A stretch of 64,000 nt of DNA from an uncultured Megamonas sp. (GCA_963558795.1 CAUWIH010000001.1:3546-67545), one strand, 5' to 3'; counted from the stretch's first letter, positions 7,745 to 64,000 are shown. Notes: a model not told the origin generated them from the sequence alone. Program-made: numbers and translations.

Positions 7745-7746
7745 TT

Positions 7747-7947: not shown

Positions 7948-7949
7948 AG

Positions 7950-8117: not shown

Positions 8118-8142
8118 TTAGGCTTTATAGTAAATCGCACTG

Positions 8143-8187
8143 AAAAAGCCCCTCTTATCGTATGGATATAAAGAGGGGCTTATTTCT
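8143..8187 (+). terminator. Intrinsic terminator after ferredoxin
   Basis: AAGCCCCTCTT...AAGAGGGGCTT inverted repeat followed by ATTTCTT. Confidence 0.65.
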
Positions 8188-9003: not shown

Positions 9004-9017
9004 TTAATTTTAGGGCG

Positions 9018-9851: not shown

Positions 9852-9882
9852 TAAGATATTCAGAGTAAAGGAATGTAATATA

Positions 9883-11031
9883 ATGAAAAAAATTGCAGTC
9901 TTAGGTTCAACTGGTTCTATTGGAACACAGACTTTAGATGTAGTGAGAAATCATAATGAGTTTTTGAAAGTTGAAGTTTTAGCAGCAAATAGTAATGATG
10001 AATTGTTAGAAGCACAAATTAAAGAATTTTGTCCTAGTATAGCAATTTTGAATGATAAAAATGCTTATGAACGTTTAAAAGCACGTTATATAGGTAAGAC
10101 AAAGCTTTATTATGGTGAAGAAGGCTTAATTGAAGGTGCGACTACTGATAAAATAGATACAGTAGTGACATCTTTAATGGGTTTTGCAGGTCTTCGCCCA
10201 ACAATGAAAGCCATTGAAGCTGGTAAAAACATTGCATTAGCCAATAAAGAAACTTTAGTTGTAGCTGGCGATTTGGTAATGCAAAAAGCTCGTGAAAAAA
10301 ATATAGAAATTATGCCAATTGATAGTGAACATGGTGCGTTATTTCAATGTTTACAGGGTGAAGATATAACAAAAGTAGATAAACTTTTACTTACTGCATC
10401 TGGTGGACCTTTTAGAGGAAAACATAAAGAAGATTTAGCAAAAGTATCAGTAAAACAATGTTTAAATCATCCTACATGGAAAATGGGAAGAAAAATTACT
10501 ATTGATAGTGCGTCATTAATGAATAAAGGTTTAGAAGTTATTGAAGCAAAACAATTATATAATATAGATTATGATAAAATTCAAGTTGTAGTACATCCAC
10601 AGAGTATAGTACATTCAATGGTACAATATGTAGATGGTTCAGTAATTGCACAATTAGGTTCAACGGATATGCGTTTACCTATTCAGTATGCATTAACTTA
10701 TCCAGAACGTATGATTTGTCCTGCAGAAAAATTAGATTTTTGGCAAATGCAGAATTTGACTTTTGAAAAACCAGATACAGATACTTTTAAAGGTTTAGCC
10801 TTAGCTTATGAAGCTGGTAAAATTGGTGGCTCAATGCCATGCGTAATGAATGCAGCTAATGAAATTGCAGTAGAAGCCTTTTTAAATGAACAAATTAGCT
10901 TTTTAGATATATATAATGTAATTGAAGAAGCTATGCAATCTCATGTAACTTTAGTTGACCCAGAACTTGAAGATTTATTTGAAATTGATAGCCAAGTTCG
11001 TCAGCAAACAAGGGAGAGGATTAAATGTTAA
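9883..11031 (+). CDS. dxr: 1-deoxy-D-xylulose-5-phosphate reductoisomerase
   Basis: LGSTGSIG, LANKETL, PIDSEH, TASGGPF, HPTWKMGRKITIDS motifs. Confidence 0.97.
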   Translation: MKKIAVLGSTGSIGTQTLDVVRNHNEFLKVEVLAANSNDELLEAQIKEFCPSIAILNDKNAYERLKARYIGKTKLYYGEEGLIEGATTDKIDTVVTSLMGFAGLRPTMKAIEAGKNIALANKETLVVAGDLVMQKAREKNIEIMPIDSEHGALFQCLQGEDITKVDKLLLTASGGPFRGKHKEDLAKVSVKQCLNHPTWKMGRKITIDSASLMNKGLEVIEAKQLYNIDYDKIQVVVHPQSIVHSMVQYVDGSVIAQLGSTDMRLPIQYALTYPERMICPAEKLDFWQMQNLTFEKPDTDTFKGLALAYEAGKIGGSMPCVMNAANEIAVEAFLNEQISFLDIYNVIEEAMQSHVTLVDPELEDLFEIDSQVRQQTRERIKC

Positions 11032-12059
11032 TTAGTACGGTTTCTATTGTGTTTGTTTTTGGGTTATTAGTACTTGTGCATGAATTTGGACATTTTATTA
11101 GTGCGAAAAAAACAGGCATGCGTGTAGATGAATTTGCTATAGGATTTGGCCCTAAAATATGGAGTATGCAAAAAGGTGAAACATTATATTCTATTCGTGC
11201 TATTCCACTTGGTGGTTTTAATCGAATCGCTGGTATGGAAAAAGGTATGGATGAAGATGCAGGACAAAGAGCATATTGGGCTCGTCCTGTGTGGGCAAGA
11301 ATGATAGTAATATTAGCTGGTTCAGTAATGAATTTTATATTGCCATTTTTGATTTTTGCTGGAGTATTTTTCTTTAGTGGAATACAAACTCCGTCAAATG
11401 AGCCAGTTATTGGTCAAGTTGTTTCTGGAGAAGCAGCAAGTCAAGCTGGCTTAAAAACTGGTGATAAAATTTTAAAAGTAAATGGTGAAGAAGTTACTTC
11501 CTGGACAAATTTTGTGCAAAAAGTACAAAATGCAGATGGTAAAATTTTAAAAGTAGATTTTATTCGCGATAATGAACCAATGGCTACATCAGTAGTGCCA
11601 AAATATGATGAACAAGCTAAACGTGCATTAATTGGTGTAACAGCACCGATGAATGTGAAGAAAGTAAGTTTTATTGATTCGATAACTTTAGCGTTTACTA
11701 CAGTAATTAGTATTGTTTATCAAATGTATAGTGGACTTATTGGTATGATAACAGGTACAGTATCAGCTGAATTATCTGGACCAGTAGGTGTGGCTCAAAT
11801 GACAAGTCAAGCAGCACATTTGGGATTAGTTCCATTATTACAATTTGCTGCATTATTGAGCTTAAATTTAGGGATAATAAACTTATTACCTATACCAGCA
11901 TTAGATGGCGGTCATTTTGTAGTGTTATTAGTAGAAGCTATTCGTGGTAAAGCTATTGAGGCTAAATATGTACGTGTAGTGCAAATGGCAGGTATAATTT
12001 TATTATTATCTTTGATGTTTTTTGCAACTGCACAAGATGTAAGTAGATTGTTTGGCTAA
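11025..12059 (+). CDS. rseP: RIP/S2P metalloprotease RseP/RasP with PDZ domain
   Basis: HEFGH, PDZ domain, NLLPIPALDGG. Confidence 0.94.
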   Translation: MLISTVSIVFVFGLLVLVHEFGHFISAKKTGMRVDEFAIGFGPKIWSMQKGETLYSIRAIPLGGFNRIAGMEKGMDEDAGQRAYWARPVWARMIVILAGSVMNFILPFLIFAGVFFFSGIQTPSNEPVIGQVVSGEAASQAGLKTGDKILKVNGEEVTSWTNFVQKVQNADGKILKVDFIRDNEPMATSVVPKYDEQAKRALIGVTAPMNVKKVSFIDSITLAFTTVISIVYQMYSGLIGMITGTVSAELSGPVGVAQMTSQAAHLGLVPLLQFAALLSLNLGIINLLPIPALDGGHFVVLLVEAIRGKAIEAKYVRVVQMAGIILLLSLMFFATAQDVSRLFG

Positions 12060-12089
12060 TAAATACAACATAAAAAGGTGTTGGATATA

Positions 12090-13148
12090 ATGATAAAAAG
12101 AAAAAATACACGTCAAATCAGTATCGGAAATGTAAAAATTGGCGGTGGAGCACCAATTTCAGTACAATCAATGACAAATACGAAAACGACTGATACAAAG
12201 AAAACAGTAGAGCAAATAAATGCTTTAGTACAAGCTGGTTGCGATATTGTACGTTTAGCAATGCCGGATATGGAGGCTGCGGAAAATATTTATAATATTA
12301 AAAGTCAAGTAAATGTTCCATTAGTTGCAGATATTCATTTTGATTATCGTTTAGCATTGAAGGCTATTGAACAAGGTATTGATGCTTTACGTATAAATCC
12401 AGGGAATATTGGTAGTAAAGATAAAGTACAAGCTGTTGTCAATGCAGCTAAAGCAAAACATATACCTATTCGTATTGGTGTAAATGCAGGTTCATTAGAT
12501 AAAAAATTATTAGCAAAATATGGTAAAGTAACGCCAGAGGCTTTAGTAGAAAGTGCATTAGAACATGTAAAAATCTTAGAAGAATTGGATTTTCATGATA
12601 TAAAAATTTCATTAAAAGCACATGATGTACCACTTACATTAGATGCTTATCGTTTAATGAGTGAAACAGTAGATTATCCACTACATTTAGGTATTACGGA
12701 AGCTGGCACAGTTAATACTGGAATTATAAAATCTGCTGTAGGTATTGGTGCTTTACTTGCCGAAGGAATTGGCGATACTTTTAGAATTTCACTTACAGGT
12801 GACCCTGTGAATGAAGTGAAAGTGGCCAATGAAATTTTAAAAGCTTTAGGCTTGAAAGAATATGGACCTACATTGATATCTTGTCCTACTTGTGGTCGTT
12901 GTAATATAGACTTACCAAGTATTGCTGAAAAAGTAGAAAAAAGATTAGTGGGTATAACTAAACCAATAAAAGTCGCTGTTATGGGGTGTGTAGTAAATGG
13001 ACCTGGAGAAGCACGTGATGCAGATATTGGCATTGCTGGCGGAAAAGGTGAAGGTTTGGTTTTTAGAAAAGGTGAAGTAATTAATAAAGTACCAGAAGAT
13101 AAATTAGTAGATGCTTTATTTGAAGAGTTAGATAAACTCATAAAATAA
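12090..13148 (+). CDS. ispG: HMBPP synthase IspG (GcpE)
   Basis: [28 protein letters not shown] and [10 protein letters not shown] Fe-S motifs. ATG at 12090 after AAAGGTG. Confidence 0.97.
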
Positions 13149-13149
13149 T

Positions 13150-13189
13150 AAAAATGCACATCAAGGAAATAGCTTTGATGTGCATTTTT
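13150..13189. terminator. Bidirectional terminator between ispG and bioC
   Basis: AAAAATGCACATCAA...TTGATGTGCATTTTT, 15-bp inverted repeat between convergent genes. Confidence 0.8.
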
Positions 13190-13229
13190 GCATATATATA
13201 AGGAAATTTAATTATTTTAGTTGTTATTT

Positions 13230-13898
13230 TTAACTTTTTGTAGCAAAAAAGCAAGCGCCTTTATAGGTTAAGGTAGTATCAGGAAAAGATTTTATTTTTT
13301 TTACACTGCTTGTAGTAGCAAATCCTGTAACACCTGTATTTTTTAAATGTTTTAAAGCATCAATAGGTGTATTGAAATTAAGTTTATATTCGTATTCTTG
13401 TGAGTGAATACAAGTATAATATTTTTTTAAAATGAATAAAATATCATTATGAGAAAGATATTTTAAAGAAACGTTAAAATGATTAGTAATTTCATAAAGA
13501 TTATCTTGAATATAAATGGAGAATGCTAAGTTTTTGCTATGGTTAGATAATTTATAGATTAATTTTTCGAAATCATTAATCCATTGAAAGACAGAACTAG
13601 AAACAATAATATCGGTATCAGGGATAGATAACTCTTCAATATTTCCTTGGAGAAATTCTGTATAGCAAATATCATCTAAATGGGCTTTAGAATTATAAAT
13701 ATCATTTAATATAATAATGGAAGGGCTATAAGTATTTAAAAATAATTGTGTAAAAATGCCAGTACCACAGCCAATTTCTAAGACACTATTATATGAACCA
13801 GCGTTATGTTTTTTTAAAATATCTAGTAAGTTTTGAGCCAATTTTTTTTGCACAAGTGCATTTTCGTTGTAAGTATTAAATTTATGATTAAAATTCAT
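13230..13898 (-). CDS. bioC: Malonyl-ACP O-methyltransferase BioC-like
   Basis: SAM motif VLEIGCGTG, IVSSSVFQW, HLKNTGV; coupled to the BioG-like gene below a BirA box. Confidence 0.8.
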   Translation of the reverse strand: MNFNHKFNTYNENALVQKKLAQNLLDILKKHNAGSYNSVLEIGCGTGIFTQLFLNTYSPSIIILNDIYNSKAHLDDICYTEFLQGNIEELSIPDTDIIVSSSVFQWINDFEKLIYKLSNHSKNLAFSIYIQDNLYEITNHFNVSLKYLSHNDILFILKKYYTCIHSQEYEYKLNFNTPIDALKHLKNTGVTGFATTSSVKKIKSFPDTTLTYKGACFFATKS

Positions 13899-14496
13899 TT
13901 GGTTGCGCCTCCCAAAGGTCCTGCCAAGAAGTAATTTTATGCCAAATATAATGACCGCAAGTCAAATTTATTATAGGCACATTATTTTTCTTGAAATATA
14001 ATTGTTGTTTGGCGGTAGGAATAATTTTATCATTAGTGGCAACAATAGCTTTAGTAAAAAGGTTTGGTAAATTATCAGTATAATTATCTTTAAAATATTG
14101 TAGTTCATTTAATATATCATTAAAATTTTTTTTAGGAGGTTGGAAATTTTCATCAATAGCCATATTATTATAAAATTTTAATAAATTTTCAGGTGTAAGA
14201 GTATTTAAGGTGAGATTTAGTATTTTAGGATGAATGCCGTATTTGCCAATAGTATTACTATGTCCATTAATAGCGATGATTTGTGTGCAAGTTAATGGGT
14301 TTTTTAGTAAATATTTAGTTAAGTAATAACAGCCAAAAGACCAACTAATAGCCATAATTTCGTCATAAGTATCAAGTGGAAAATTGATTTCATAAGGAAA
14401 GTTTATGATTTTTAATTCAAAATTATCCGGTATAGCTAGATTTTTAAAATTTGATTGATCCATGCCCCAACCATTGAAAAATAAGATACAATTCAT
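13888..14496 (-). CDS. bioG: Pimeloyl-ACP methyl ester esterase, BioG/DUF452 family
   Basis: LFFNGWGMD start typical of DUF452, nucleophile elbow SWSFG, D(KII)P and GHY triad candidates. Confidence 0.78.
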   Translation of the reverse strand: MNCILFFNGWGMDQSNFKNLAIPDNFELKIINFPYEINFPLDTYDEIMAISWSFGCYYLTKYLLKNPLTCTQIIAINGHSNTIGKYGIHPKILNLTLNTLTPENLLKFYNNMAIDENFQPPKKNFNDILNELQYFKDNYTDNLPNLFTKAIVATNDKIIPTAKQQLYFKKNNVPIINLTCGHYIWHKITSWQDLWEAQPNEF

Positions 14497-14533
14497 AAAT
14501 ATTACCTCGAATAAATTTTTATTAAATTGTGTT

Positions 14534-14567
14534 AATGTTAACTTTGAAAATAATTATGGTTAACATT
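14534..14567. promoter_or_regulatory. BirA operator upstream of bioG-bioC
   Basis: Perfect AATGTTAAC-N16-GTTAACATT palindrome, matching the BirA consensus TGTTAAC-N14-16-GTTAACA. Confidence 0.85.
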
Positions 14568-14728
14568 TTACAGTGAGTTATATCAAAAGTCAATAGCAGT
14601 ATATTTGCTGGATAATATAAAATCCTATTGCCAAAATACTTTTTATAGTATATATTTATTTTAGCTATTTACCAAAATTTTACATAATAGTAAATTTTAT
14701 ATAAGAAAAAAAGAAGGGACGGTTAAAT

Positions 14729-16423
14729 TTGTTAAATAAAGGATTTTTAGGCAAAATAACAAATTATTTGCAAAGAGTTTTTGATGAACATTTTATGTTT
14801 ATTTTAACTTTATTTATAATTAATAGTGTAACTACAGCGTGGTCTCTTTTTGCTGAGGATAAAGCTGAAGTAGCAATAGGATATATTTTTTCAGTATGGT
14901 TAGGTTCTTTTTTAATAACTTGCATTATTGATTTATTACCAAAAAGATTTTTGCAAAAAATAGTAAAAATAATATTATTAATACCTATTGGTATAGTGTT
15001 TATTGGTGAGTTTTTTACCATGTATTGTTATAAAGCTTTAATTGGTACAGGTATTATTAATTCTGCTTTAGAAACTAATATGCGTGAAGCTACAGAATTT
15101 TTATCTATGTATGTGGGTTTTTCAGGATTATTTACAATTGTAGCAATAATTGTAGCCGGAGTTTTATTATATAAATATAATCCGTTCAAAAAAATAAATA
15201 TAAGTTATAATACTAAGACAAAATTGGTTAGCGTCTTAGTGGTGGCAAGTTTATTTTATACAATAAGAATGTTTGCGGTATATACTGATTTTATTTGGGA
15301 CGATAAGGTGTTACCAATACAGAGAGTATATGCATCTACATCTGTTGCGGTGAAGAATATGCAAGCATATAAAGAGTTATCATCACAGGTAAATAGTAAG
15401 GTAGAACTTACAGAAAATAAGAGTGAAATAAAAAATATAGTATTTATTTTGGGTGAATCTACAAATAGAAATCATATGCATTTGTATGGATATTATTTAC
15501 CAAATACGCCAAACCTTGATGAATTAAATCAAAAAGGTGAATTAAGTGTTTTTCGTGATGTAGTAAGTCCACATTCAACGACGATTGCTGTTTTGAGTAA
15601 ATTATTTACTTTTTGCGATCATGAATCAGATAAGGAATGGTATAACTATAATAATTTAATTGATGTAATGAATGCAGCTGGTTATAAAACACATTGGCTT
15701 TCTAATCAAGAAACTTCTGGTGTTTGGGGTAATGTGGCACAAATTTATGCAGCACATAGTACTGTAAGTGCATTTACACGTATTCGTGATTCTCGTGAGG
15801 ATTATGGTATTGTAGATGGTGAATTATTCCCACTTATTGATGATGCTATTGCCAATAGAAGTGAAGATAAAAACTTTTATGTAGTACATCTCATGGGTGG
15901 TCATGGATTATATTATAATCGTTTCCCTTATAGTTTTAGTAAATTTAATAAAGATGATATAACTTTACCAATCAGTGATGGTAAAAGGGAGATTGTAGCT
16001 CAATATGATAATGCACTTTATTATAATGACTATATTGTAAGTAGTATTATTGATAAATTCCGTGATAGCGAAACATTAGTTATTTATGTACCGGATCATG
16101 GGGAAGCTGTATACGATGAAGGCGAAGACATGTCAGGTCATATAGAAGAAAATCCAACTCATCATATGATAGAGATACCAGTGATTATATGGGCGTCTGA
16201 TAAATTTAAAGCAAAATATCCTGAAAAATGGTCTGAAATAAAAGCAGCAGTAAATAGACCATATATGACAGATGATATGATTCATACAGTAATGGATATT
16301 GCAGATATAAAAACTGCAGAATTCGATCCAACAAGAAGTATTATAAATGCTAAATTTAATGATAAACGACCACGTATATTTGATGGTATGGATTATGATA
16401 AAGAAATAAAAGAAGTAAAATAA
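14729..16423 (+). CDS. Phosphoethanolamine transferase (EptA/CptA family)
   Basis: N-terminal transmembrane helices plus sulfatase-like domain: ILGESTNR, putative catalytic Thr in PHSTTI, HLMGGH, PDHGE. Confidence 0.85.
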   Translation: MLNKGFLGKITNYLQRVFDEHFMFILTLFIINSVTTAWSLFAEDKAEVAIGYIFSVWLGSFLITCIIDLLPKRFLQKIVKIILLIPIGIVFIGEFFTMYCYKALIGTGIINSALETNMREATEFLSMYVGFSGLFTIVAIIVAGVLLYKYNPFKKINISYNTKTKLVSVLVVASLFYTIRMFAVYTDFIWDDKVLPIQRVYASTSVAVKNMQAYKELSSQVNSKVELTENKSEIKNIVFILGESTNRNHMHLYGYYLPNTPNLDELNQKGELSVFRDVVSPHSTTIAVLSKLFTFCDHESDKEWYNYNNLIDVMNAAGYKTHWLSNQETSGVWGNVAQIYAAHSTVSAFTRIRDSREDYGIVDGELFPLIDDAIANRSEDKNFYVVHLMGGHGLYYNRFPYSFSKFNKDDITLPISDGKREIVAQYDNALYYNDYIVSSIIDKFRDSETLVIYVPDHGEAVYDEGEDMSGHIEENPTHHMIEIPVIIWASDKFKAKYPEKWSEIKAAVNRPYMTDDMIHTVMDIADIKTAEFDPTRSIINAKFNDKRPRIFDGMDYDKEIKEVK

Positions 16424-56605: not shown

Positions 56606-57328
56606 ATGAGTAATGCAAGAATAGAATATATGAAAGAATCTGCATGGAAACGTGGCATGGGTAAAAAAGTGGAAAAAATACCACCTTTTGAATTACCATA
56701 TGCCAAAGATGCAGTATTGGTAGACCTTGTAGAACCAGATATTTTACCAGATAAAAATATAAATTTTTTGGAAATGGTAGAAGTTCGTTCTACAATTCGT
56801 CAATATGATGATGAGAAAGAATTAACTAATAAAGAATTATCATATTTACTTTGGTGTACTCAAGGTCTAAAAATGGTCATGCAGACAAAAACTATTCGTA
56901 ATGTACCATCAGCTGGCGGAAGAAATGCTTTAGAAACTTTCTTATATATTCGTCGTGTTGAAGGCATTAAACCGGGGTTATATCGCTTTTTACCATTAGA
57001 ACATAAGTTATTATTAGTATCTGATGCAGATGATATTGAAGAAAAAATTTGTGGTCAATTTTCTACAATTGGTGTTGCAAATAATTCTGCAGTAGTATTT
57101 TTATGGACTGCTGTATATGAAAGAATGGCTTGTATGTTTGGTGAACGTGCATATCGTTATATTTATTTAGATGCAGGTCATGTTTGTCAGAATTTATATT
57201 TAGCAGCACAGACAATGCATATAAAAGTATGTGCATTAGGTGCTTTTGATGATGAAATTTTAAATCAAAATCTTGGTTTTGATGGAGAAAATCAATTTGT
57301 TGTTTATGGTGCAGGTGTAGGAAAATAG
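56606..57328 (+). CDS. SagB/ThcOx-like nitroreductase-family oxidoreductase
   Basis: R.TIRQY, LS.LLW.TQG, R.VPSAGGR..LE, RAYRY..LDAGH..QNLYL, GAFDD. Confidence 0.85.
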   Translation: MSNARIEYMKESAWKRGMGKKVEKIPPFELPYAKDAVLVDLVEPDILPDKNINFLEMVEVRSTIRQYDDEKELTNKELSYLLWCTQGLKMVMQTKTIRNVPSAGGRNALETFLYIRRVEGIKPGLYRFLPLEHKLLLVSDADDIEEKICGQFSTIGVANNSAVVFLWTAVYERMACMFGERAYRYIYLDAGHVCQNLYLAAQTMHIKVCALGAFDDEILNQNLGFDGENQFVVYGAGVGK

Positions 57329-57341
57329 AATAAGCTAGAGT

Positions 57342-57393
57342 AAAAGAACTCAATTAAGTGATACTTATGAGTGTTACTTAATTGAGTTCTTTT
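57342..57393 (+). terminator. Intrinsic terminator
   Basis: AAAAGAACTCAATTAAGT...ACTTAATTGAGTTCTTTT, 18-bp inverted repeat. Confidence 0.8.
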
Positions 57394-57409: not shown

Positions 57410-57488
57410 TTTCCGCATAAAAATATAATGAGGAAATTTTTATAATATTTAAAATAAAATACAAAAATATTTCCGCATGTTGCGGAAA
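57410..57488. promoter_or_regulatory. LicR/MtlR-type PRD regulator binding sites
   Basis: TTTCCGCA-tgt-TGCGGAAA (57470-57488) and TTTCCGCA-N11-TGAGGAAA (57410-57436). Confidence 0.6.
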
Positions 57489-57553
57489 ACAATCAATCTA
57501 TGATGGATTGCTAATTTTTGATACAATTTAATCAAGTTAAGGGAGTATTGAAA

Positions 57554-59479
57554 ATGGCAAAGATTAATAAACGAAGAAAGAAAATATTTGATATGTTAAA
57601 AGAACATCAAACAGGATTGAGTGGAGAATTTATGTCTCAACAGTTAGGTGTTTCTTCAAGAACAATACGTTCAGATATAAAAGCTTTACAAGAATATTTA
57701 GTTGAATATGATATACGAATAATTTCTAGCCCTAATAAGGGATATCGCTTTAATAAATTTGAGCAACTTGATACTGCTGAACAAAATTTGTTTCAAGAAG
57801 GTGTTAGTAATTTAGAAACAGCAAAACAAAGGATAAATTATATATTGTATAGACTGTTAGAAAATACTTTTAAAGATATTGTTATTACACAAAATGATTT
57901 AGCAGAAGAAATGTATATAAGTTTATCTACATTAAAGATGCATTTAAATGAAGTAAAAGATATCTTACAAAAATATGATTTAAAAGTTACACAATATAAA
58001 ACAAAGGGTATAAAGGTTATTGGTGAAGAAGTTAAGATACGTTATTGCATAGTAGATATGATAAATACATGTAGTACAGAAAAATTTTTCCAGAAGATTT
58101 TAGCAAATGTAGATATTGAGTTATTAGATAAAATAATAAAAGAAACATTAAGTTATAAAAAAATACAATTAGCAGATAGATCTAAAGAAAAATTTTGTCT
58201 ACATATAGCAATAGGCATGCAACGTTCTAATTGTAATAAATTTGTATCCTATCCGTCTAGTATTGCTAATAAAATAGAAAATACTTTTGAATATAATGTA
58301 GCTAAAGAGTTAATAGATAATATATTAAAAAAGATGAATATAGATATAGCTTGTTCAGAAGTATATTATATTGCTCAATGCTTATTAGCTAGCAAGAAAT
58401 TAACAGATATTAGTGAATCAATGGACAAAAAACATGTAAAAAAATTAGTAAATATAATTTTAAAAGAAATTCATGAAAAGTTATCTATTGATTTTACTAA
58501 CGATGAATATTTGATTGATGGTTTAACATTACATTTAAACATAGCATTAACAAGAATTCAATTTCAGATGAATATCAGAAATGAATTGTTAGAAACTATA
58601 AAAAATGATTATCCGTTAGCATTTCAAATGGGGGTAATTGCTGGTAAAATTGTTGAACAATATGACAACATAAAAATTAATGAGAATGAAATTGGTTATA
58701 TAGCTTTACATTTTGGTGCAGCATTAAGTAGAAATGGTATAAAAGAAAATATTCAGGCTAAAAATATAATAATAGTATGCTCTTCAGGATTAGGGATATC
58801 TGTATTACTAAAGGCGAAAGTTGAAGAATATTTTCATAATAGATTAAATGTAGTAAAAGTTTTACCAGGTTATGAAGTTAATGAGAAAACACTAGAAAAT
58901 ATAGATTATATATTATCTACAGTTCCATTAAAAAATATTGCTTCAGATAAAATAATTAAAATTAATCGTATGTTACAAAAAGAAGATGTAGAAAATATTG
59001 AAAATAAGATTTTTCACAAAATAGATACAGATTTAATAGAAATTACAACTTTTTTTAATAAAGATAATTTTTATATTGATAAAGATTTTGAAACAAAAGA
59101 AGAGTGTATAAATTTTTTAGCGGATGAGGCTATAAAAAAAGATTTAATGGATGAAATGTCTAAAGAATCTATTTTTGAAAGAGAAGAGATATCATCTACA
59201 TCAATAGGTGATTTAACAGCAATACCACATCCAATATCAACAGATACAAAAAAATCTTTTATCTCTATTTTAGTATTAAATAAACCTATAATGTGGGGAG
59301 ATTTTTTAGTACAGGTTGTATTTCTATTAAATATAGAAAAATCAAAAGCTAATTTATGGGAGCCTATGTTTTTAAAATTGTATAACTATATAAAAGAAAA
59401 AAATGGAATAAATTCATTATTAAAAAATAAATCATATGATATGTTTTTAAAAGAATTTATAAGTTTTTCTCAAATATAA
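57554..59479 (+). CDS. PRD-containing PTS regulator (BglG/LicR/MtlR-like: HTH-Mga-PRD-EIIB-EIIA)
   Basis: LGVSSRTIRSDI HTH, YISLSTL, PRD His in LTLHL and IALHF, EIIB VCSSGLG, EIIA AIPHP. ATG at 57554. Confidence 0.9.
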   Translation: MAKINKRRKKIFDMLKEHQTGLSGEFMSQQLGVSSRTIRSDIKALQEYLVEYDIRIISSPNKGYRFNKFEQLDTAEQNLFQEGVSNLETAKQRINYILYRLLENTFKDIVITQNDLAEEMYISLSTLKMHLNEVKDILQKYDLKVTQYKTKGIKVIGEEVKIRYCIVDMINTCSTEKFFQKILANVDIELLDKIIKETLSYKKIQLADRSKEKFCLHIAIGMQRSNCNKFVSYPSSIANKIENTFEYNVAKELIDNILKKMNIDIACSEVYYIAQCLLASKKLTDISESMDKKHVKKLVNIILKEIHEKLSIDFTNDEYLIDGLTLHLNIALTRIQFQMNIRNELLETIKNDYPLAFQMGVIAGKIVEQYDNIKINENEIGYIALHFGAALSRNGIKENIQAKNIIIVCSSGLGISVLLKAKVEEYFHNRLNVVKVLPGYEVNEKTLENIDYILSTVPLKNIASDKIIKINRMLQKEDVENIENKIFHKIDTDLIEITTFFNKDNFYIDKDFETKEECINFLADEAIKKDLMDEMSKESIFEREEISSTSIGDLTAIPHPISTDTKKSFISILVLNKPIMWGDFLVQVVFLLNIEKSKANLWEPMFLKLYNYIKEKNGINSLLKNKSYDMFLKEFISFSQI

Positions 59480-59495
59480 GTAGGTGCATATTTTT

Positions 59496-60158
59496 ATGGA
59501 AAAAAATATAGAAATAAAAAAAGAAGTAGTATTTTATGCTAAGTTATTAGATAAAAAAGGTTTAGTTAATCCATTAGAAGGTAATATATCAATTTATGAT
59601 AGAGATAGTAATAAGTTATACATTACACCATCAGGAACAAGAAAATCTTTATTAACGGAAAGTGCTATAGCTGTTTTACAAAATGGAAAACAAATAGAAG
59701 GATATTTAAAACGTTCTAGTGAGTATTTATTACATGAAGCTGCACTAAAAGCTAGACCAGATTGTAATGCAGTAGTGCATACACATGCGCCATATTTAAC
59801 AGCTTTTGCATATTGTAATAAAGATATAAAATTACGTTGTTCATCGACATTTGCTTTATTGTTTGAAGAGATTCCATGTTTACCATATGGGCAGCCAGGA
59901 ACAAAAGATATAGCAAATGGAATTGAAGAAGCTATAAAAGAGCATGATTTGATATTACTAGGAAATCATGGTTGTTTAACAGTAGCACCCACTTTAGAAA
60001 AAGCTATAGCTATTTTAGAAGCTGGTGAAGAAGTTATGAAAATATATACAATAGCTAGCTCTATAGGAACAATAAAAGATATAGCTAATGATAAATGGGA
60101 AAAAATGTGTAATGAACATCTTGGTAGTAAAAGAAATAGGTATAAGAGAAGGGAGTGA
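59496..60158 (+). CDS. Class II aldolase/adducin-family sugar-phosphate aldolase or epimerase
   Basis: EGNIS, ITPSG, SSE..LH, HTH and NHG metal motifs. ATG at 59496. Confidence 0.85.
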   Translation: MEKNIEIKKEVVFYAKLLDKKGLVNPLEGNISIYDRDSNKLYITPSGTRKSLLTESAIAVLQNGKQIEGYLKRSSEYLLHEAALKARPDCNAVVHTHAPYLTAFAYCNKDIKLRCSSTFALLFEEIPCLPYGQPGTKDIANGIEEAIKEHDLILLGNHGCLTVAPTLEKAIAILEAGEEVMKIYTIASSIGTIKDIANDKWEKMCNEHLGSKRNRYKRRE

Positions 60159-61204
60159 AGAGAATGCAGGCTGCTATTATGTATGGACCAAATGATATAA
60201 GGGTAGAGAATATAGAAAAACCAAAGTGTCCACCAAATGGTCTAATTTTAAAAGTTTTATCAATAGGTTTATGTGGTTCAGATATTAGAAATATGACAAC
60301 AGATTCATGTAAAGGAAAATATCCACATATATTTGGTCATGAAATAGTAGGTATGGTTGATGAAATAGATATAAATACACCAAAATATAAAGTTGGAGAT
60401 AAATTATATATTTATCCTGAGGATCATTGTTTAAAATGTGATGAATGTAGAGCTGGTCATAGTGAAAATTGCTTAAATCCAGGTGATTATATTGCTAGAC
60501 AAGGTGGTTTTGCTGATTTTGTTGTTGTGACGAATAAGCAAATTAATAGAGATGCAGTCTTTAAATTACCTGAAAACATAAATTTAGATAATGCTACGCT
60601 TAGTGAACCATTATCATCAGTATATGCTTGTCAAGAAAATATTAATATTACACTAGGAGATAGTGTGGTTATTATTGGAGCAGGGCCTATAGGCTGTTTT
60701 CATGCGCAAATGGCAAAAATAAGAGGAGCTAAATGCGTTATTATGGTTGAAATTAATGATAAACGATTGGAAATGGCAAAACAGTTTGGTGTTGATTATA
60801 CTATCAATAGTTTAAAAGAAAATCCTGTAGCTAAAATAAAACAGATTACAAATAATAAAGGTGCTGATAAAGTAATATCAGCTAATCCATCAAGTAATGC
60901 TCAGGCGCAAAGTATTTTTATGGCGAAAGCTGGAGGAATAGTAGTATTTTTTGGTGGTGTTCCTAAAGGGACACTAGTTAGTTTGGATACAAATTACATT
61001 CATTATAATAATTTATGGATTTATGGTCATTTTGGAGCTAATAGTATACAAGTACAAAAAGCGTTTGAATTGGCTATTAGTAAAAATTTTCCAGCAGAAA
61101 AATTTATTACTCATGTATTGCCATTAAAAGATATTAATAAAGGTATAGAGTTAACAAAATCAGGAGAGGCTATAAAAGTAGTTTTACATCCTAATTTAAA
61201 TTAA
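60155..61204 (+). CDS. Zn-dependent polyol(-phosphate) dehydrogenase (MDR)
   Basis: GLCGSD, GHE, C..C..C.......C structural Zn, LSEP, GAGPIG. Confidence 0.88.
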   Translation: MKRMQAAIMYGPNDIRVENIEKPKCPPNGLILKVLSIGLCGSDIRNMTTDSCKGKYPHIFGHEIVGMVDEIDINTPKYKVGDKLYIYPEDHCLKCDECRAGHSENCLNPGDYIARQGGFADFVVVTNKQINRDAVFKLPENINLDNATLSEPLSSVYACQENINITLGDSVVIIGAGPIGCFHAQMAKIRGAKCVIMVEINDKRLEMAKQFGVDYTINSLKENPVAKIKQITNNKGADKVISANPSSNAQAQSIFMAKAGGIVVFFGGVPKGTLVSLDTNYIHYNNLWIYGHFGANSIQVQKAFELAISKNFPAEKFITHVLPLKDINKGIELTKSGEAIKVVLHPNLN

Positions 61205-61238
61205 TAAAAATTATAAATATTTTGAGGAGGAATTTAAA

Positions 61239-61532
61239 ATGATTAAAGGATTAGTTGCATGCGGTAGCGGAATTGCTACATCAACAGTTGCTCAGCAGGC
61301 AGTAAAAAAAATATTGGCAGATGCAGGTATTGAAGCTGATATTAGTAAAGGAAATATCACAGAAATTCCAGTAAAACAGAACACTGTAGATATTATTTTT
61401 ACAACATCTAATTATACACAACCTACAAAAGTTCCTGTAATAAAAGTTTTTGGTTTAATTTCTGGAATTGGAAAAGATAAAATTAAAGATGAAATTATTG
61501 CAGCTTGTTTAGAAATTGAAAAAAATAAATAA
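61239..61532 (+). CDS. PTS EIIB, galactitol/ascorbate family
   Basis: VACGSGIATS phospho-Cys loop. Confidence 0.88.
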   Translation: MIKGLVACGSGIATSTVAQQAVKKILADAGIEADISKGNITEIPVKQNTVDIIFTTSNYTQPTKVPVIKVFGLISGIGKDKIKDEIIAACLEIEKNK

Positions 61533-61621
61533 ATTTTTTATTTAATTATCTGAGAAGCGTTAGTTATCAAAATATTTGTTTTTTTTGAAAATTAACGCTT
61601 CTTGAAGAAAGGTTGAAGAAT

Positions 61622-62881
61622 ATGGATACGTTATTAAACATTGTTCAAACAATATTAGGTATGGGTGCTGTTGTAATATTACCTATTATGATATTTATAC
61701 TTGGACTTATTTTTAGAATGAAAATTGGTGCAGCTATTCAAGCTGGCTTAATGATTGGTATCGGTTTTCAGGGGTTATTGTTAGTTATTAATTTATTAAT
61801 GGCATCTATTGATCCTGTTGTTAAATATTATCAAAGTATGGGTAGTGGTTTTACTACTGTAGATATTGGTTGGGCTGCTTTGGGAGCAATTTCATGGACA
61901 GCACCATTTGCCCCACTTGCAGTACCACTTATTATTTTAGCTAATGTTATTTTAATAAAAGTTGGCTTAACAAAAGTAATGAACGTAGATATGTGGAACT
62001 ATATTCATTTCTTAATTCCAGGTGCAGTAGCTTATGCTTTATTTGATAGTGTTATTTTAGGATTAGTTATTACAGTTGGTTTATCTATTTTAGCTTTATT
62101 TATTGCTGAAAAAGTAGCTCCTCATTGGGAAAAAGTTTTTGGTTTAGAAGGTACAACTTGTACTTGTATGTCATTCATTAGTTATATGTGGCCATTATCA
62201 ATAATTATTAATAAAATTATTGATTGTATTCCAGGGTTAAATAAATTTGATTTAGATTTGACAAAATTACAATCTAAAATTGGATTTTTTGGTAATCCAG
62301 CATTTATAGGGTTAATTGTAGGTATTTTATTAGGTATTATAACAGAACAACCAATTACAACAATTACTACTATTGCAATGGGTCTTGCTAGTGTACTTTT
62401 ATTAATCCCAAGAATGGTTGCAGTAATGATGGAAGGTTTATCTTCTATTGGTACAGCTGCAAATGATTTTATGCAAAAACATATTGCTAAAGACGCACAA
62501 TTATGGATTGGTATGGATGTATGTTTAGGTTTAGGTCATCCAACTTGTATCGTATGTACTGCACTTTGTATTCCATTTACAATTTTATTAGCATTTATTA
62601 TTCCTGGAATGACATTTTTCCCAATCGGTTTATTAACAAGTATTTGTTATATAACTGTTATGTGTGTAATGGCAAGTAATGGTAACTTAGTTCGTTCATT
62701 AATTTGTTCAATGGTAAGTATTGTTTTAATTACTTGGGCAGCAAATACTTTTGCGCCAGAGGCAACAATGATGTTAAAAGCATTAGGTGTTCCAGTTGAA
62801 GGTATGATAACAGAAGGTGGACATTTTGGTTTTAATTTACCAGTAGTTATTATAAGTGCTATTTCTAGAATTTTAGGATAA
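61622..62881 (+). CDS. PTS EIIC, galactitol (GatC) family
   Basis: IGIGF.G, VDIGW, NVDMWNY.H, EG.T, IGMD...GLGHP motifs. ATG at 61622. Confidence 0.88.
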   Translation: MDTLLNIVQTILGMGAVVILPIMIFILGLIFRMKIGAAIQAGLMIGIGFQGLLLVINLLMASIDPVVKYYQSMGSGFTTVDIGWAALGAISWTAPFAPLAVPLIILANVILIKVGLTKVMNVDMWNYIHFLIPGAVAYALFDSVILGLVITVGLSILALFIAEKVAPHWEKVFGLEGTTCTCMSFISYMWPLSIIINKIIDCIPGLNKFDLDLTKLQSKIGFFGNPAFIGLIVGILLGIITEQPITTITTIAMGLASVLLLIPRMVAVMMEGLSSIGTAANDFMQKHIAKDAQLWIGMDVCLGLGHPTCIVCTALCIPFTILLAFIIPGMTFFPIGLLTSICYITVMCVMASNGNLVRSLICSMVSIVLITWAANTFAPEATMMLKALGVPVEGMITEGGHFGFNLPVVIISAISRILG

Positions 62882-62934
62882 TAAAATTTTTTATAGGCTA
62901 ATAGTTTTAAGTCTATTATGTGAGGTTTATATGA

Positions 62935-63381
62935 ATGGATAATTCAAAAAAATATATAGCTATAGAAGCAGATGCACAAAATTGGGAAGAAGCAATAAAA
63001 CTTTGTGGAGAAGCTTTAATTGCTAATAATTGTATAGGACAAGGTTTTGTAACAGCTTGTATAGAAAGAGAAAAATCATTTCCAACTGGGTTACCAACTG
63101 TAATACCTGTAGCTATACCACATGCAGCTTCTGATGAAGTTAATATAACATCAGTATGTATATTGAAGTTAAAAAATCCAGTAGAATTTAAACGAATGGA
63201 TGATTCTAGCGAATCTATTAGAGCAAGATTAGTCTTTAATTTAGCAATAAAAGGACATAATGAACATCTTGATTATTTACAAAATTTAATTGCATTTGTT
63301 ATGGACGAAGAAAAAGTGAAAAAATGTTTATCTTTGTCATTAGGTGAAATACCTAATTATTTGGAAAATAATATGTCTTAA
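62935..63381 (+). CDS. PTS EIIA, fructose/mannitol/galactitol type
   Basis: REKSFPTGL and VAIPH phospho-His motif. Confidence 0.88.
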   Translation: MDNSKKYIAIEADAQNWEEAIKLCGEALIANNCIGQGFVTACIEREKSFPTGLPTVIPVAIPHAASDEVNITSVCILKLKNPVEFKRMDDSSESIRARLVFNLAIKGHNEHLDYLQNLIAFVMDEEKVKKCLSLSLGEIPNYLENNMS

Positions 63382-63410
63382 TGATGTAAAAAATAAGTGA
63401 GGTGTTCTTG

Positions 63411-64000
63411 ATGAATAATAATATAAAAATATTACCATCATTATTTGCAGCAGATATTTTTGATTTAAAAAGTCAAATAAAGATATTAGAGAGATGTAAA
63501 GTTGATTTATTGCATATCGATGTTATGGATGGAAATTTTGTAAGTCGAATGGCATTTGGCGCAGAGCATATACAAATGATAAAAAAATATACAAAGATAC
63601 CTTTAGATGTACATTTGATGGTTAAATATCCAGAGAAACATATCAGTGATATTTTAGAAGCTGGAGCAGATATTATTACAATTCATCAAGAATCTACATT
63701 ATGTTTATATCATTGCTTAGAAATGATACAAAGAAAAGGGAGAATGGCTGGAGTAGTCTTAAGTCCAGCCACTCCAGTTCAAAATATAAAATATATTTTA
63801 TCTTTAATTGATATGGTATTGATAATGACAGTAAATCCTGGTGAAAAAAATCAAGTATTTTTGTTTGATATGATAAATAAAATTAAAGAGGTATCAGAAT
63901 TATTAAAAGACAAGAATATTGATATAGAAGTTGATGGTAGTATTGATGATAAAACAGCAGTATTATGTCAAGCTGCAGGAGCAAATATTTTTGTATCTGG
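63411..64000 (+). CDS. Ribulose-phosphate 3-epimerase family protein (Rpe/AlsE-like), truncated by the window end; absent from the ORF track
   Basis: Manual translation MNNNIKILPSLFAAD...HIDVMDG...DVHLM...MTVNPG...EVDG; RBS GAGGTG. Confidence 0.88.
   Translation, partial: MNNNIKILPSLFAADIFDLKSQIKILERCKVDLLHIDVMDGNFVSRMAFGAEHIQMIKKYTKIPLDVHLMVKYPEKHISDILEAGADIITIHQESTLCLYHCLEMIQRKGRMAGVVLSPATPVQNIKYILSLIDMVLIMTVNPGEKNQVFLFDMINKIKEVSELLKDKNIDIEVDGSIDDKTAVLCQAAGANIFVS

What the first reader, a model, noticed from the sequence alone, without database searches (positions are those of the whole stretch)
57554..64000. Galactitol-family PTS operon with an unusual enzyme set: probable undescribed polyol pathway
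The order is regulator, class II aldolase/epimerase, Zn dehydrogenase, EIIB, EIIC, EIIA, Rpe-family epimerase. It lacks the tagatose-6-P kinase and GatYZ of galactitol use, at least within the window. The epimerase has altered substrate and phosphate loops (NPGEKNQ versus NPGFGGQ; DGS versus DGG). A route of polyol-P to ketose-P to epimerised ketose-P to aldol cleavage or 4-epimerisation fits a pentitol, tetritol or rare hexitol (inference).
Basis: partly seen in the sequence, partly recalled or inferred. Interest (0 to 1): 0.6.

Follow-up and report, generated by a model that had tools for sequence, protein, structure and literature searches.

The report
Mosaic sugar-alcohol PTS operon, pentose-phosphate tail
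This is a real 15-gene operon of a gut Selenomonadaceae bacterium that imports a sugar alcohol, most likely one or more five-carbon ones, and feeds it into the pentose-phosphate pathway; its layout resembles known Listeria and Bacillus pentitol operons, but its front-end five-gene cassette has no studied member and its substrate is unknown.

Summary
The seven genes in the window begin a 15-gene, 13.6-kb operon. The order is MtlR/LicR-type regulator, class II aldolase-fold enzyme (AldII), Zn dehydrogenase DH1, EIIB, EIIC, EIIA, Rpe1, PHI, GatD-like DH2, Rpe2, RpiB, transketolase, Rpe3, Rpe4 and FSA/transaldolase. Hairpin terminators bound it on both sides.

It is not the galactitol operon. A canonical gat operon with GatY and a hexose kinase lies on contig C57.

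AldII-DH1-IIB-IIC-IIA is a conserved cassette, found patchily in about 20 species of Negativicutes, Lachnospiraceae, Erysipelotrichaceae, Tissierellales and Collinsella. It often stands alone.

A sister species has the same regulator and the same RpiB-Tkt-Rpe3-Rpe4 tail at this locus. Its middle is a different IIA-IIB-IIC-dehydrogenase module, so the middle has been swapped.

AldII matches neither FucA nor AraD fully. The altered Rpe1 loops are conserved in its orthologues.

My best reading is a pentitol-type PTS operon with an uncharacterised front end. A rare hexitol or a tetritol is not excluded.

Other orphan Gat-family cassettes were noted on other genomes.

The parts
57345..57390 (+). 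Intrinsic terminator of the upstream nitroreductase gene; left boundary of the operon
   Evidence: 20-bp stem followed by a T-run (inverted repeat I1); the upstream ORF 56606-57328 is Nitroreductase PF00881
57410..57488 (+). Candidate operator: TTTCCGCAT repeated 60 bp apart, the second copy inside the perfect palindrome TTTCCGCA-TGT-TGCGGAAA (57470-57488), between AT-rich -10-like boxes and the regulator's RBS
   Evidence: this stretch is 99-100% identical in nucleotides in sister species G001. Its function is inferred, not tested.
57554..59479 (+). MtlR/LicR-type PTS-controlled transcription activator (HTH_11, Mga HTH, two PRDs, EIIB-Gat-like and EIIA-Mtl/Fru-like domains)
   Evidence: Pfam hits; ATG 57554 with RBS. 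Residues 1-405 are 99-100% identical to the G001 regulator, the EIIB domain 87% and the EIIA domain 76%.
59496..60158 (+). AldII: class II aldolase/adducin-fold metalloenzyme of an uncharacterised subfamily (ORF from GTG 59484; likely ATG 59496)
   Evidence: PF00596 at 143 bits, with no NCBIfam model above its cut-off. Alignment with E. coli FucA, AraD, UlaF, SgbE, RhaD and YgbL. AlphaFold2 pLDDT 92.8; best folds are DrdA 6BTG/6BTD and FucA at TM 0.82-0.88, against AraD at 0.79.
60164..61204 (+). DH1: Zn-dependent MDR dehydrogenase (sorbitol-DH/Tdh-like), inferred polyol-phosphate dehydrogenase; its RBS AGGGAG lies inside the last codons of AldII, 5 nt after the AldII stop
   Evidence: orthologues of 63-85% identity are always beside AldII
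61239..61532 (+). PTS EIIB, galactitol family
   Evidence: PF02302; NF007643 at 46.5 bits, below its cut-off of 95
61613..62881 (+). PTS EIIC, galactitol family (PF03611)
   Evidence: PF03611 at 204.6 bits; TIGR00827 at 290 bits, below its cut-off of 542. 78% identical to Anaerosinus, at most 38% to EIICs of the same genus.
62935..63381 (+). PTS EIIA (Mtl/Fru/Gat type)
   Evidence: PF00359 at 97.8 bits
63402..64000 (+). Rpe1: Rpe-family 3-epimerase with remodelled phosphate loops; runs off the window and ends at window-equivalent 64082 (L001 6948-7628)
   Evidence: the loops NPGE[KG][NK]Q, EVDGS and SGGY are shared by the Anaerosinus and Pectinatus orthologues

Best explanation
This is one PTS-dependent sugar-alcohol operon of 15 genes, and it is a mosaic. 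A Gat-family EIIB/EIIC/EIIA, fed by the genome's EI and HPr, takes up one or more polyols and phosphorylates them. The substrate is most likely one or more pentitols. Two NAD-type Zn dehydrogenases (DH1 and the GatD-like DH2) oxidise the polyol phosphates to ketose phosphates. AldII, the non-canonical epimerases Rpe1, Rpe2 and Rpe4, the PHI-type isomerase and RpiB then convert 'wrong' stereoisomers into D-xylulose-5-P, D-ribulose-5-P or fructose-6-P. Transketolase, the canonical Rpe3 and FSA/transaldolase carry these into glycolysis. AldII and DH1 act in sequence, DH1 first. AldII most likely performs a metal-dependent retro-aldol-type step on the DH1 product. That step could be a 4-epimerisation (for example L-ribulose-5-P to D-xylulose-5-P, coming from ribitol or L-arabitol). 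It could instead be cleavage of a ketose-1-P to DHAP plus an aldehyde. The MtlR/LicR-type regulator activates the operon and is itself controlled by PTS phosphorylation. SHOWN: gene content, operon boundaries, family assignments, conservation of the cassette, the cassette swap, and a separate canonical gat operon. INFERRED: the substrate class, the order of the enzyme steps, the chemistry of AldII, and activation by the regulator.
For: The operon extends to a full non-oxidative pentose-phosphate set. These models are above their curated cut-offs: RpiB TIGR01120 161.9 against 138.65; Tkt TIGR00232 904 against 682; Rpe3 TIGR01163 235.9 against 212.6; FSA/Tal NF009299 310.6 against 214; PHI TIGR03127 203.9 against 160. 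These copies are additional to copies elsewhere in the genome: an Rpe on C23, a Tkt on C52, RpiB on C42 and C8, and a Tal on C8. Terminator hairpins flank the 15 genes and none was predicted on the + strand between genes. EI and HPr are present. Sister species G001 carries, at the same locus, Reg (92% identity), IIA, IIB, IIC, one dehydrogenase, RpiB (97%), Tkt (95%), Rpe3 (85%) and Rpe4 (73%). From my memory of Kentache 2016, that is the layout of the Listeria D-arabitol/xylitol operon. Published precedent exists: Gat-family PTS plus MDR pentitol-phosphate dehydrogenases giving pentose phosphates in L. monocytogenes, E. avium and B. methanolicus (PMC6685057; PMC13082608), and six Rpe paralogues in L. 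monocytogenes (bioRxiv 10.1101/2022.03.04.482958). The canonical galactitol genes are elsewhere: GatY 489.5 against 383 and hexose kinase 308.9 against 216.4 on C57. The AldII-DH1 adjacency is kept in 16 of the 20 fetched loci with at least 48% AldII identity, and the two genes are translationally coupled here. DH1 and DH2 have the full Zn-ligand sets and an acidic residue after beta-2, which indicates NAD.
Against: No substrate has been tested, and no sequence comparison with the characterised Listeria, E. avium or B. methanolicus enzymes was possible with these tools. Rpe2 and Rpe4 carry AlsE-like DG[AS]C/DGN and GTS motifs and group weakly with E. coli AlsE (79/93 support). A true PHI is present, but no HPS or UlaD homologue was found. 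Both points fit hexulose-6-phosphates. In most species the AldII-DH1-PTS cassette stands alone without pentose-phosphate genes, so the pentose-phosphate tail says little about that branch. AldII is nearer to FucA/DrdA aldolases than to AraD epimerases in sequence and in fold, and it lacks AraD's Asp76, Asp120 and insert. An erythritol or threitol route to erythrose-4-P would use the same pentose-phosphate enzymes.
Confidence: 0.5

Rival explanations
1. Rare-hexitol or rare-hexose funnel. The PTS takes allitol, D-altritol/D-talitol or a related hexitol. The dehydrogenases make D-psicose-6-P, D-tagatose-6-P or a 3-hexulose-6-P. The AlsE-like Rpe2 and Rpe4, Rpe1 with PHI, RpiB acting as allose-6-P isomerase, and AldII acting as a C4 epimerase then convert these to fructose-6-P.
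For: Rpe2 and Rpe4 share AlsE-type motifs (DGAC/DGN, GTS[AG]LF) and group with AlsE, though weakly. PHI passes the HxlB cut-off, yet no HPS/KGPDC homologue was found in a 99.99% complete genome, so a 3-hexulose-6-P would have to come from a dehydrogenase. E. coli RpiB is also an allose-6-P isomerase (annotation).
Against: Transketolase, a canonical Rpe and FSA/Tal are not needed if the product is fructose-6-P. The sister species' simpler variant at the same locus is pentitol-like. No Rpe paralogue reaches the AlsE cut-off: the best is 188.5 against 271.
Confidence: 0.2
2. AldII is a true aldolase. DH1 makes a ketose-1-phosphate from a polyol-1-phosphate (for example D-ribulose-1-P from ribitol-1-P, or L-fuculose-1-P from L-fucitol-1-P). 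AldII cleaves it to DHAP plus glycolaldehyde or lactaldehyde, and an Fe-ADH reduces the aldehyde, which re-oxidises the NADH made by DH1. This concerns the AldII branch only and can coexist with the main reading.
For: AldII keeps the FucA-type Glu (SSE), the three Zn histidines and the phosphate pocket (GN, TPSG, SS). Its best sequence and fold matches are DHAP-dependent aldolases, DrdA 6BTD/6BTG and FucA. G1PDH/glycerol-DH-like Fe-ADH genes sit next to the cassette in Pectinatus, Anaerostipes, Absicoccus and possibly Anaerosinus. The genome has a FucO homologue of 58% identity.
Against: FucA's Tyr113 is not conserved; the equivalent stretch reads CS[ST]TF. Known MDR polyol-phosphate dehydrogenases oxidise the end distal to the phosphate and so give ketose-5-P or ketose-6-P, not ketose-1-P (established for GatD and arabitol-phosphate dehydrogenase; from my own knowledge). 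G000 has no Fe-ADH in the operon, and its FucO is accounted for by a rhamnose pathway (RhaD on C61, RhaB on C38).
Confidence: 0.3
3. Tetritol (erythritol or threitol) operon. The PTS makes a tetritol-4-P and a dehydrogenase makes erythrulose-4-P. Rpe-like, AldII or PHI enzymes correct the stereochemistry or the carbonyl position. RpiB, acting as D-erythrulose-4-P isomerase, gives erythrose-4-P, which transketolase and transaldolase assimilate.
For: RpiB-family enzymes are the D-erythrulose-4-P isomerases of the Brucella and Mycobacterium tetritol pathways (from my own knowledge). Assimilating E4P needs exactly Tkt, Tal, Rpi and Rpe, and all four are in the operon.
Against: RpiB scores 93.8 against the 240 cut-off of the D-erythrulose-4-P isomerase model, but passes the RpiB model. 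No EryC-type or TIM-type tetrulose isomerase is present. An AraD/FucA-type C3-C4 retro-aldol step has no sensible tetrulose substrate (inference).
Confidence: 0.07
4. Second galactitol route. A dehydrogenase makes D-tagatose-6-P and AldII epimerises it at C4 to fructose-6-P, bypassing the kinase and GatYZ.
For: DH2 is the closest paralogue of E. coli GatD in the operon (4A2C at 201.7 bits; 34% identity). Tag6P and F6P are C4 epimers. A tagatose-6-P 4-epimerase exists in another protein family in Agrobacterium (from my own knowledge).
Against: The same genome has a complete canonical gat-type operon on C57. AldII is paired with DH1, not with DH2, in every genome examined. DH1 is only 24% identical to GatD.
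Confidence: 0.05

Closest known systems
Listeria monocytogenes PTS-Axl pentitol operon lmo2659-lmo2668 (Kentache et al. 2016, PMID 27553222; not held in the library, cited through PMC13082608, PMC6685057 and bioRxiv 10.1101/2022.03.04.482958) and its paralogue lmo0498-lmo0508
   Same: MtlR/LicR-type activator, Gat-family EIIA/B/C, two MDR polyol-phosphate dehydrogenases, and RpiB, transketolase and several Rpe paralogues in one operon. The lmo0498-0508 operon also has a SIS-type isomerase and a transaldolase (gene lists from my memory). The sister species' variant has nearly the same gene order.
   Different: The operon here adds a class II aldolase-fold enzyme, a PHI that passes the HxlB cut-off, and four Rpe paralogues of which three are non-canonical. 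The PTS gene order is B-C-A. No sequence-level orthology test against the Listeria proteins was possible. The substrate is untested.
Bacillus methanolicus atlABCD arabitol operon and Enterococcus avium D-arabitol-phosphate dehydrogenase (PMC6685057)
   Same: A Gat-family PTS annotated 'galactitol' that in fact serves D-arabitol; sorbitol-DH-like and GatD-like MDR dehydrogenases; a BglG/MtlR-type regulator.
   Different: That operon has no aldolase-fold enzyme, no Rpe paralogues and no pentose-phosphate tail.
E. coli galactitol system gatYZABCD (PTS Gat family, TC 4.A.5; GatD structure 4A2C)
   Same: EIIA, EIIB and EIIC families; a Zn-MDR dehydrogenase acting on the PTS product.
   Different: No GatY/GatZ and no tagatose-6-P kinase in this operon; they sit in a separate operon on contig C57. 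All Gat-specific NCBIfam equivalogs are far below their cut-offs.
L-ribulose-5-P 4-epimerases AraD/UlaF/SgbE, L-fuculose-1-P aldolase FucA, and DrdA (PDB 1JDI, 1FUA, 6BTD)
   Same: The fold (TM 0.79-0.88), the three Zn histidines, and the phosphate pocket Asn/Thr-Gly/Ser-Ser.
   Different: AldII has Glu like FucA, not Asp like AraD. It lacks FucA's Tyr113. It lacks AraD's Asp120 and the EINGEYE insert. It has its own invariant motifs (LEGNISI, SSEYLLHEAA, PDCNAV, C-S-x-T-F, C-terminal RNRY).
E. coli AlsE (D-allulose-6-P 3-epimerase), SgcE of the orphan sgc Gat-family PTS operon, and canonical Rpe
   Same: All four paralogues keep the Rpe barrel and its catalytic His/Asp residues. Rpe2 and Rpe4 share AlsE-like loop motifs. 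SgcE shows that Rpe homologues occur in Gat-family PTS operons.
   Different: Identities to AlsE, Rpe and SgcE are only 20-38%. The Rpe1 loop NPGExxQ is in none of the three references.

Membership tests
E. coli-type galactitol operon (gatYZABCD) | Gat-family EIIC (PF03611) with EIIB and EIIA | tested here: met
   PF03611 204.6 bits, PF02302 48 bits, PF00359 97.8 bits
E. coli-type galactitol operon (gatYZABCD) | Galactitol-1-P 5-dehydrogenase equivalog (NF007642, cut-off 550) | tested here: not met
   DH2 255.3 bits and DH1 116.7 bits; 34% and 24% identity to E. coli GatD
E. coli-type galactitol operon (gatYZABCD) | Tagatose-bisphosphate aldolase GatY(Z) and a tagatose-6-P kinase in the operon | tested here: not met
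   None among the 15 genes. GatY (489.5 against 383) and a hexose kinase (308.9 against 216.4) are on contig C57 with their own Gat PTS.
Listeria/Bacillus-type pentitol PTS operon (PTS-Axl, atlABCD) | MtlR/LicR-type activator with HTH, two PRDs, EIIB and EIIA domains | tested here: met
   HTH_11, Mga, PRD (two stretches), PTS_IIB (22.5 bits, just under the 23.6 cut-off) and PTS_EIIA_2
Listeria/Bacillus-type pentitol PTS operon (PTS-Axl, atlABCD) | MDR polyol-phosphate dehydrogenase(s) next to a Gat-family PTS, with RpiB, Rpe and Tkt in the same operon | tested here: met
   operon boundaries
Listeria/Bacillus-type pentitol PTS operon (PTS-Axl, atlABCD) | Orthology of the EIIC and dehydrogenases to Lmo2663-2665, AtlC/D or E. 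avium APDH | not tested
Listeria/Bacillus-type pentitol PTS operon (PTS-Axl, atlABCD) | Growth on, or induction by, D-arabitol or xylitol | not testable with these tools
   Needs culture work
L-ribulose-5-P 4-epimerase (AraD/UlaF/SgbE) | Asp76 metal ligand (SSD), Asp120, the EINGEYE insert, the C-terminal YYGQ Tyr229, and the TIGR00760 cut-off of 389 | tested here: not met
   AldII reads SSE, has Ala at the Asp120 position and has no insert; TIGR00760 54.7 bits. A true AraD in Anaerostipes locus L020 scores 382 bits, just under the TIGR00760 cut-off but above NF006047's cut-off of 257 (382.3 bits).
L-fuculose-1-P aldolase (FucA) | Glu73, His92/94/155 and the phosphate pocket | tested here: met
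   SSE, HTH, NHG, GN and TPSG are aligned and invariant in 15 orthologues
L-fuculose-1-P aldolase (FucA) | Tyr113 and the curated cut-offs (NF005302 264; TIGR01086 400) | tested here: not met
   Ser/Thr at the Tyr113 position; 120.1 and 89.6 bits
Ribulose-phosphate 3-epimerase (TIGR01163, cut-off 212.6) | Score above the cut-off and the canonical phosphate loops PGFGGQ / DGG / G[SA] | tested here: inconclusive
   Rpe3 scores 235.9 and has canonical loops. Rpe1 scores 216.4, marginally above, but its loops read NPGEKNQ / DGS / SGG. Rpe2 (206.2) and Rpe4 (149.1) are below the cut-off.
6-phospho-3-hexuloisomerase (HxlB, TIGR03127, cut-off 160) | Score above the cut-off; partner hexulose-phosphate synthase present | tested here: inconclusive
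   203.9 bits. No homologue of UlaD (an HPS-family protein) was found in the genome by tblastn.

The most novel reading that the evidence does not exclude
AldII and DH1 together form an undescribed two-enzyme route that takes a PTS-made polyol phosphate straight to a central metabolite. On this reading AldII is a new activity of the class II aldolase fold, for example a Glu-type ketose-phosphate 4-epimerase or a new ketose-phosphate aldolase. The route is carried on a mobile five-gene cassette shared by gut Negativicutes, Lachnospiraceae, Erysipelotrichaceae, Tissierellales and Collinsella. In addition, Rpe1, Rpe2 and Rpe4 would be three new ketose-phosphate epimerase specificities.
Probability: 0.35. 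Interest if true: 0.6.

Novelty: new variant of a known kind. Interest (0 to 1): 0.45.

Why it matters
Sugar alcohols such as xylitol, erythritol, arabitol and ribitol reach the colon in quantity as sweeteners and as plant and fungal metabolites. Which gut anaerobes use them, and by what routes, is poorly mapped. This locus offers three things.

1. A conserved five-gene cassette with no characterised member, whose aldolase-fold enzyme fits neither the aldolase nor the epimerase signature.
2. Three conserved non-canonical Rpe clades.
3. A natural experiment. Two sister species share the regulator and the pentose-phosphate tail but carry different uptake and oxidation modules. The crossover lies inside the regulator, just before the domains that communicate with the PTS. 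This makes substrate assignment by comparative growth and RNA-seq straightforward.

It is an incremental gain in pathway annotation, not a new kind of system.

Tried and rejected
1. Gene-fusion evidence. Hit P0108 (553 aa, Aldolase_II plus ADH Pfam domains) looked like an AldII-DH1 fusion. BLAST shows AldII residues 7-171 and DH1 residues 33-347 joined by about 68 unrelated residues. It is probably a chimeric or mis-called gene, so I did not use it.

2. Direct comparison with the Listeria, E. avium and B. methanolicus enzymes. Kentache 2016 is not held. No paper in the library lists lmo2659-2664. The control genomes of the genome search do not include Listeria. No tool could supply the sequences.

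3. Organism name. The exact-sequence look-up returned no names.

4. Literature searches for Megamonas, Anaerostipes or Pectinatus combined with polyols, and for this enzyme combination, found nothing that characterises the cassette.

5. A dihydroxyacetone-releasing (FSA-like) role for AldII. It is unlikely in this genome, which has no DhaK (Dak1) homologue at 99.99% completeness.

6. Fold search of the AldII model. It separates FucA/DrdA (TM 0.82-0.88) from AraD (0.79) only slightly and does not decide the chemistry.

7. The Rpe tree, which uses only E. coli references. The grouping of Rpe2 and Rpe4 with AlsE is weak (79/93).

Full report
OBSERVATION. Pfam and NCBIfam give the following.
- Regulator: HTH_11, Mga-HTH, two PRDs, a PTS_IIB-like domain and a PTS_EIIA_2 domain.
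- Aldolase_II protein: 143.5 bits.
- Zn-MDR dehydrogenase.
- PTS_IIB.
- EIIC-GAT: 204.6 bits.
- PTS_EIIA_2.
- An Rpe-family protein that runs off the window.

The dehydrogenase's RBS lies inside the last codons of the aldolase-fold gene. The quoted Rpe motifs are real: TVNPGEKNQ and EVDGS, against TVNPGFGGQ and EVDGG in S. pyogenes Rpe 2FLI, with the catalytic residues kept.

FULL EXTENT. The window is G000:C1:3546-67545. I read on in L001, where window position = L001 position + 56454. The operon continues with eight more genes.

| Gene | L001 coordinates | Key score against cut-off |
|---|---|---|
| Rpe1 (end) | to 7628 | TIGR01163 216.4 / 212.6 |
| 6-phospho-3-hexuloisomerase (PHI) | 7639-8184 | TIGR03127 203.9 / 160 |
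| GatD-like Zn dehydrogenase DH2 | 8220-9272 | GatD model NF007642 255.3 / 550 |
| Rpe2 | 9289-9948 | TIGR01163 206.2 / 212.6 |
| RpiB | 9965-10414 | TIGR01120 161.9 / 138.65 |
| Transketolase | 10494-12479 | TIGR00232 904 / 682 |
| Rpe3 | 12579-13268 | TIGR01163 235.9 / 212.6 |
| Rpe4 | 13299-13994 | TIGR01163 149.1 / 212.6 |
| FSA/TalC-type aldolase | 14026-14703 | NF009299 310.6 / 214 |

recA follows. A strong terminator closes the upstream nitroreductase gene (window 57345-57390). A hairpin with a T-run follows the last gene (L001 about 14719-14770). The scan found no + strand terminator between genes. The unit is therefore 15 genes and 13.6 kb. Upstream of the regulator lies a perfect palindrome, TTTCCGCA-TGT-TGCGGAAA, with a half-site 60 bp before it. 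This is a candidate operator (inference).

THE REST OF THE GENOME. The genome is 2.14 Mb, 30.9% GC and 99.99% complete. It has EI and HPr. It has a fifth, canonical Rpe on C23, further RpiB, Tkt and Tal genes elsewhere, and four PF03611 EIICs.

Contig C57 carries a textbook galactitol-type operon: a GatD-like dehydrogenase, an MtlR-type regulator, IIA, IIB, IIC, GatY (489.5 against 383) and a 1-PFK/LacC-type hexose kinase (308.9 against 216.4). So the missing kinase and aldolase exist, but in a different operon with its own transporter. This argues that the C1 operon serves another substrate.

AldII is one of only two Aldolase_II genes in the genome; the other is RhaD on C61. No DhaK and no UlaD/HPS homologue was found.

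COMPARATIVE GENOMICS. None of six genomes of the same genus has an EIIC more than 38% identical to this one. The best match, at 78%, is in another family of the class. That genome is Anaerosinus massiliensis, judged by its contig length. There the order is Reg-AldII-DH1-IIB-IIC-IIA-Rpe1-PHI-DH2-Rpe2-RpiB-Rpe4, at 52-78% identity.

DH1 has many orthologues of 63-85% identity, all with generic names. A scan of 185,579 species genomes with an AldII profile gave 20 loci with at least 48% AldII identity. They come from Pectinatus frisingensis, Pelosinus, Propionispira, Anaerostipes hominis and MAGs, Lachnospiraceae, Eubacterium and Oscillospiraceae MAGs, Collinsella vaginalis, Absicoccus and Erysipelotrichaceae MAGs.

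In 16 of these 20 loci DH1 lies beside AldII, and in 15 the block AldII-DH1-IIB-IIC-IIA is intact. It usually has an MtlR-type regulator and nothing else from this operon. The same holds in a Tissierellales genome. Within Negativicutes, AldII was found in 7 of 301 genomes and 6 of 93 genera. The extension Rpe1-PHI-DH2-(Rpe2)-RpiB occurs only in G000, Anaerosinus, Pectinatus and G052. G1PDH-like Fe-ADH and HAD-IIA phosphatase genes often sit beside the cassette, but not in G000.

CASSETTE SWAP. Sister species G001 has the nitroreductase flank at 87% nucleotide identity. Directly after it come Reg (92% aa), IIA (35%), IIB (39%), IIC (38%), one MDR dehydrogenase (34% to DH2), RpiB (97%), Tkt (95%), Rpe3 (85%), Rpe4 (73%) and then a TnpB gene.

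BLASTN gives two colinear blocks, L001 118-3004 and 9955-13966. Between them, 6.95 kb in G000 (AldII to Rpe2) stands where G001 has 3.3 kb. The promoter region and the first 1.2 kb of the regulator gene are 99-100% identical in nucleotides, while the flanks are 85-88% identical. Identity then decays through the regulator's EIIB domain (87% aa) and EIIA domain (76% aa).

The left crossover therefore lies just before the regulator domains that are expected to exchange phosphate with the PTS. The operon is modular: regulator, then a swappable uptake-and-oxidation module, then a pentose-phosphate tail. Which variant is ancestral is not settled. The gene order shared with Anaerosinus and Pectinatus favours the G000 type.

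THE ENZYMES.

AldII. It aligns with E. coli FucA, AraD, UlaF, SgbE, RhaD and YgbL. It keeps the FucA-type Glu (SSE), the three Zn histidines and the phosphate pocket. It lacks FucA's Tyr113. It lacks AraD's Asp76, Asp120 and insert. It has its own invariant motifs. No NCBIfam model is above its cut-off; the best is the FucA model NF005302 at 120.1 against 264. The AlphaFold2 model has pLDDT 92.8. It is closest to DrdA and FucA (TM 0.82-0.88), with AraD at 0.79.

DH1 and DH2. Both have the catalytic and structural Zn ligands and NAD-type Rossmann motifs. They are 33% identical to each other and 24% and 34% identical to GatD.

Rpe paralogues. Rpe1's altered loops are shared by its orthologues as NPGE[KG][NK]Q, EVDGS and SGGY, so they are under selection. 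Rpe2 and Rpe4 have AlsE-like DGAC/DGN and GTS motifs. Rpe3 and the C23 copy are canonical.

MECHANISM. The steps shown and the steps inferred are separated in Best explanation.

The pentose-phosphate tail, the pentitol-like sister variant and the published Listeria, E. avium and B. methanolicus systems make a pentitol-type substrate most likely (PMC6685057; PMC13082608; bioRxiv 10.1101/2022.03.04.482958).

A stereochemical scheme uses all the parts. D-arabitol-P, xylitol-5-P and D-ribitol-5-P give D-Xu5P or D-Ru5P. The 'L' phosphates of ribitol, L-arabitol or xylitol give L-Ru5P or L-Xu5P, which need 3- and 4-epimerisation. This scheme is inference.

The stand-alone cassette must reach a central metabolite with only DH1 and AldII. 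That points to a 4-epimerisation (L-Ru5P to D-Xu5P, or Tag6P to F6P) or to cleavage of a ketose-1-P. The evidence does not decide between them.

The hexitol reading rests on the AlsE-like epimerases and on a PHI without an HPS. The tetritol reading also remains open.

NOVELTY. The architecture is a known kind. The AldII-DH1 cassette, the three Rpe clades and the module swap are new details. I found no paper that characterises them. The library lacks most subscription journals, so this is not proof of absence.

By words, other orphan Gat-family cassettes with different enzyme sets were noted on other genomes.

LIMITS. No expression or growth data were available. There is no orthology test against the characterised pentitol enzymes. 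The Listeria gene lists come from my memory. The genus name Megamonas comes from earlier notes and I did not verify it.

Noticed in passing
L001:14704-14770 (just past the operon's last gene; G000:C1:74703-74769): The terminator hairpin after the FSA/Tal gene belongs to a roughly 60-nt repeat family. The same element matches at about 80% identity at 19 places in sister genome G003 and 9 places in G001. It looks like a REP-like intergenic hairpin repeat.
   Followed up: partly
window 57455-58650 (L001 1001-2200) against L069 (G001): A 1.2-kb tract covering the operon's promoter and the 5' two-thirds of the regulator gene is 99-100% identical in nucleotides between two species whose flanks are 85-88% identical. 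This indicates a recent recombination between the species at this locus.
   Followed up: partly
G000 contig C57 (L071:100-7241, minus strand; xylulokinase at 9971-11497): A complete canonical galactitol/tagatose-type operon: GatD-like dehydrogenase, MtlR-type regulator, IIA, IIB, IIC, GatY and a LacC/1-PFK-type hexose kinase. A XylB-type xylulokinase lies nearby.
   Followed up: yes
L020:515-9079 (Anaerostipes MAG JAQVEG010000008.1): Directly upstream of that genome's AldII-DH1 cassette lies a second Gat-family PTS operon with a G1PDH-like Fe-ADH, a true AraD (382 bits), a HAD-IIA phosphatase and a second G1PDH-like gene. This echoes araD-araL-araM of B. subtilis (gene names from my memory) and suggests that G1PDH-like enzymes act as polyol-phosphate dehydrogenases.
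   Followed up: partly
L069:11079-12209 (G001): An IS200/IS605-type TnpB gene sits directly after Rpe4 in the sister species, where G000 has the FSA/Tal gene and then recA. recA lies about 494 kb away in G001, so the right end of the operon is a synteny break.
   Followed up: no
G000 contig C42:368-6511: Another sugar-phosphate cluster: a split transketolase (N and C halves), a G1PDH-like Fe-ADH (35% identical to the Pectinatus gene next to the cassette) and a third RpiB.
   Followed up: no
L016 (Anaerobium acetethylicum FMKA01000022.1): A DH1 orthologue of 64% identity occurs without a PTS. It sits beside a XylB-like FGGY kinase, an Mga/PRD regulator, a Cof-type HAD phosphatase and a different class II aldolase-fold gene. 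This looks like a kinase-based variant of the same route.
   Followed up: partly
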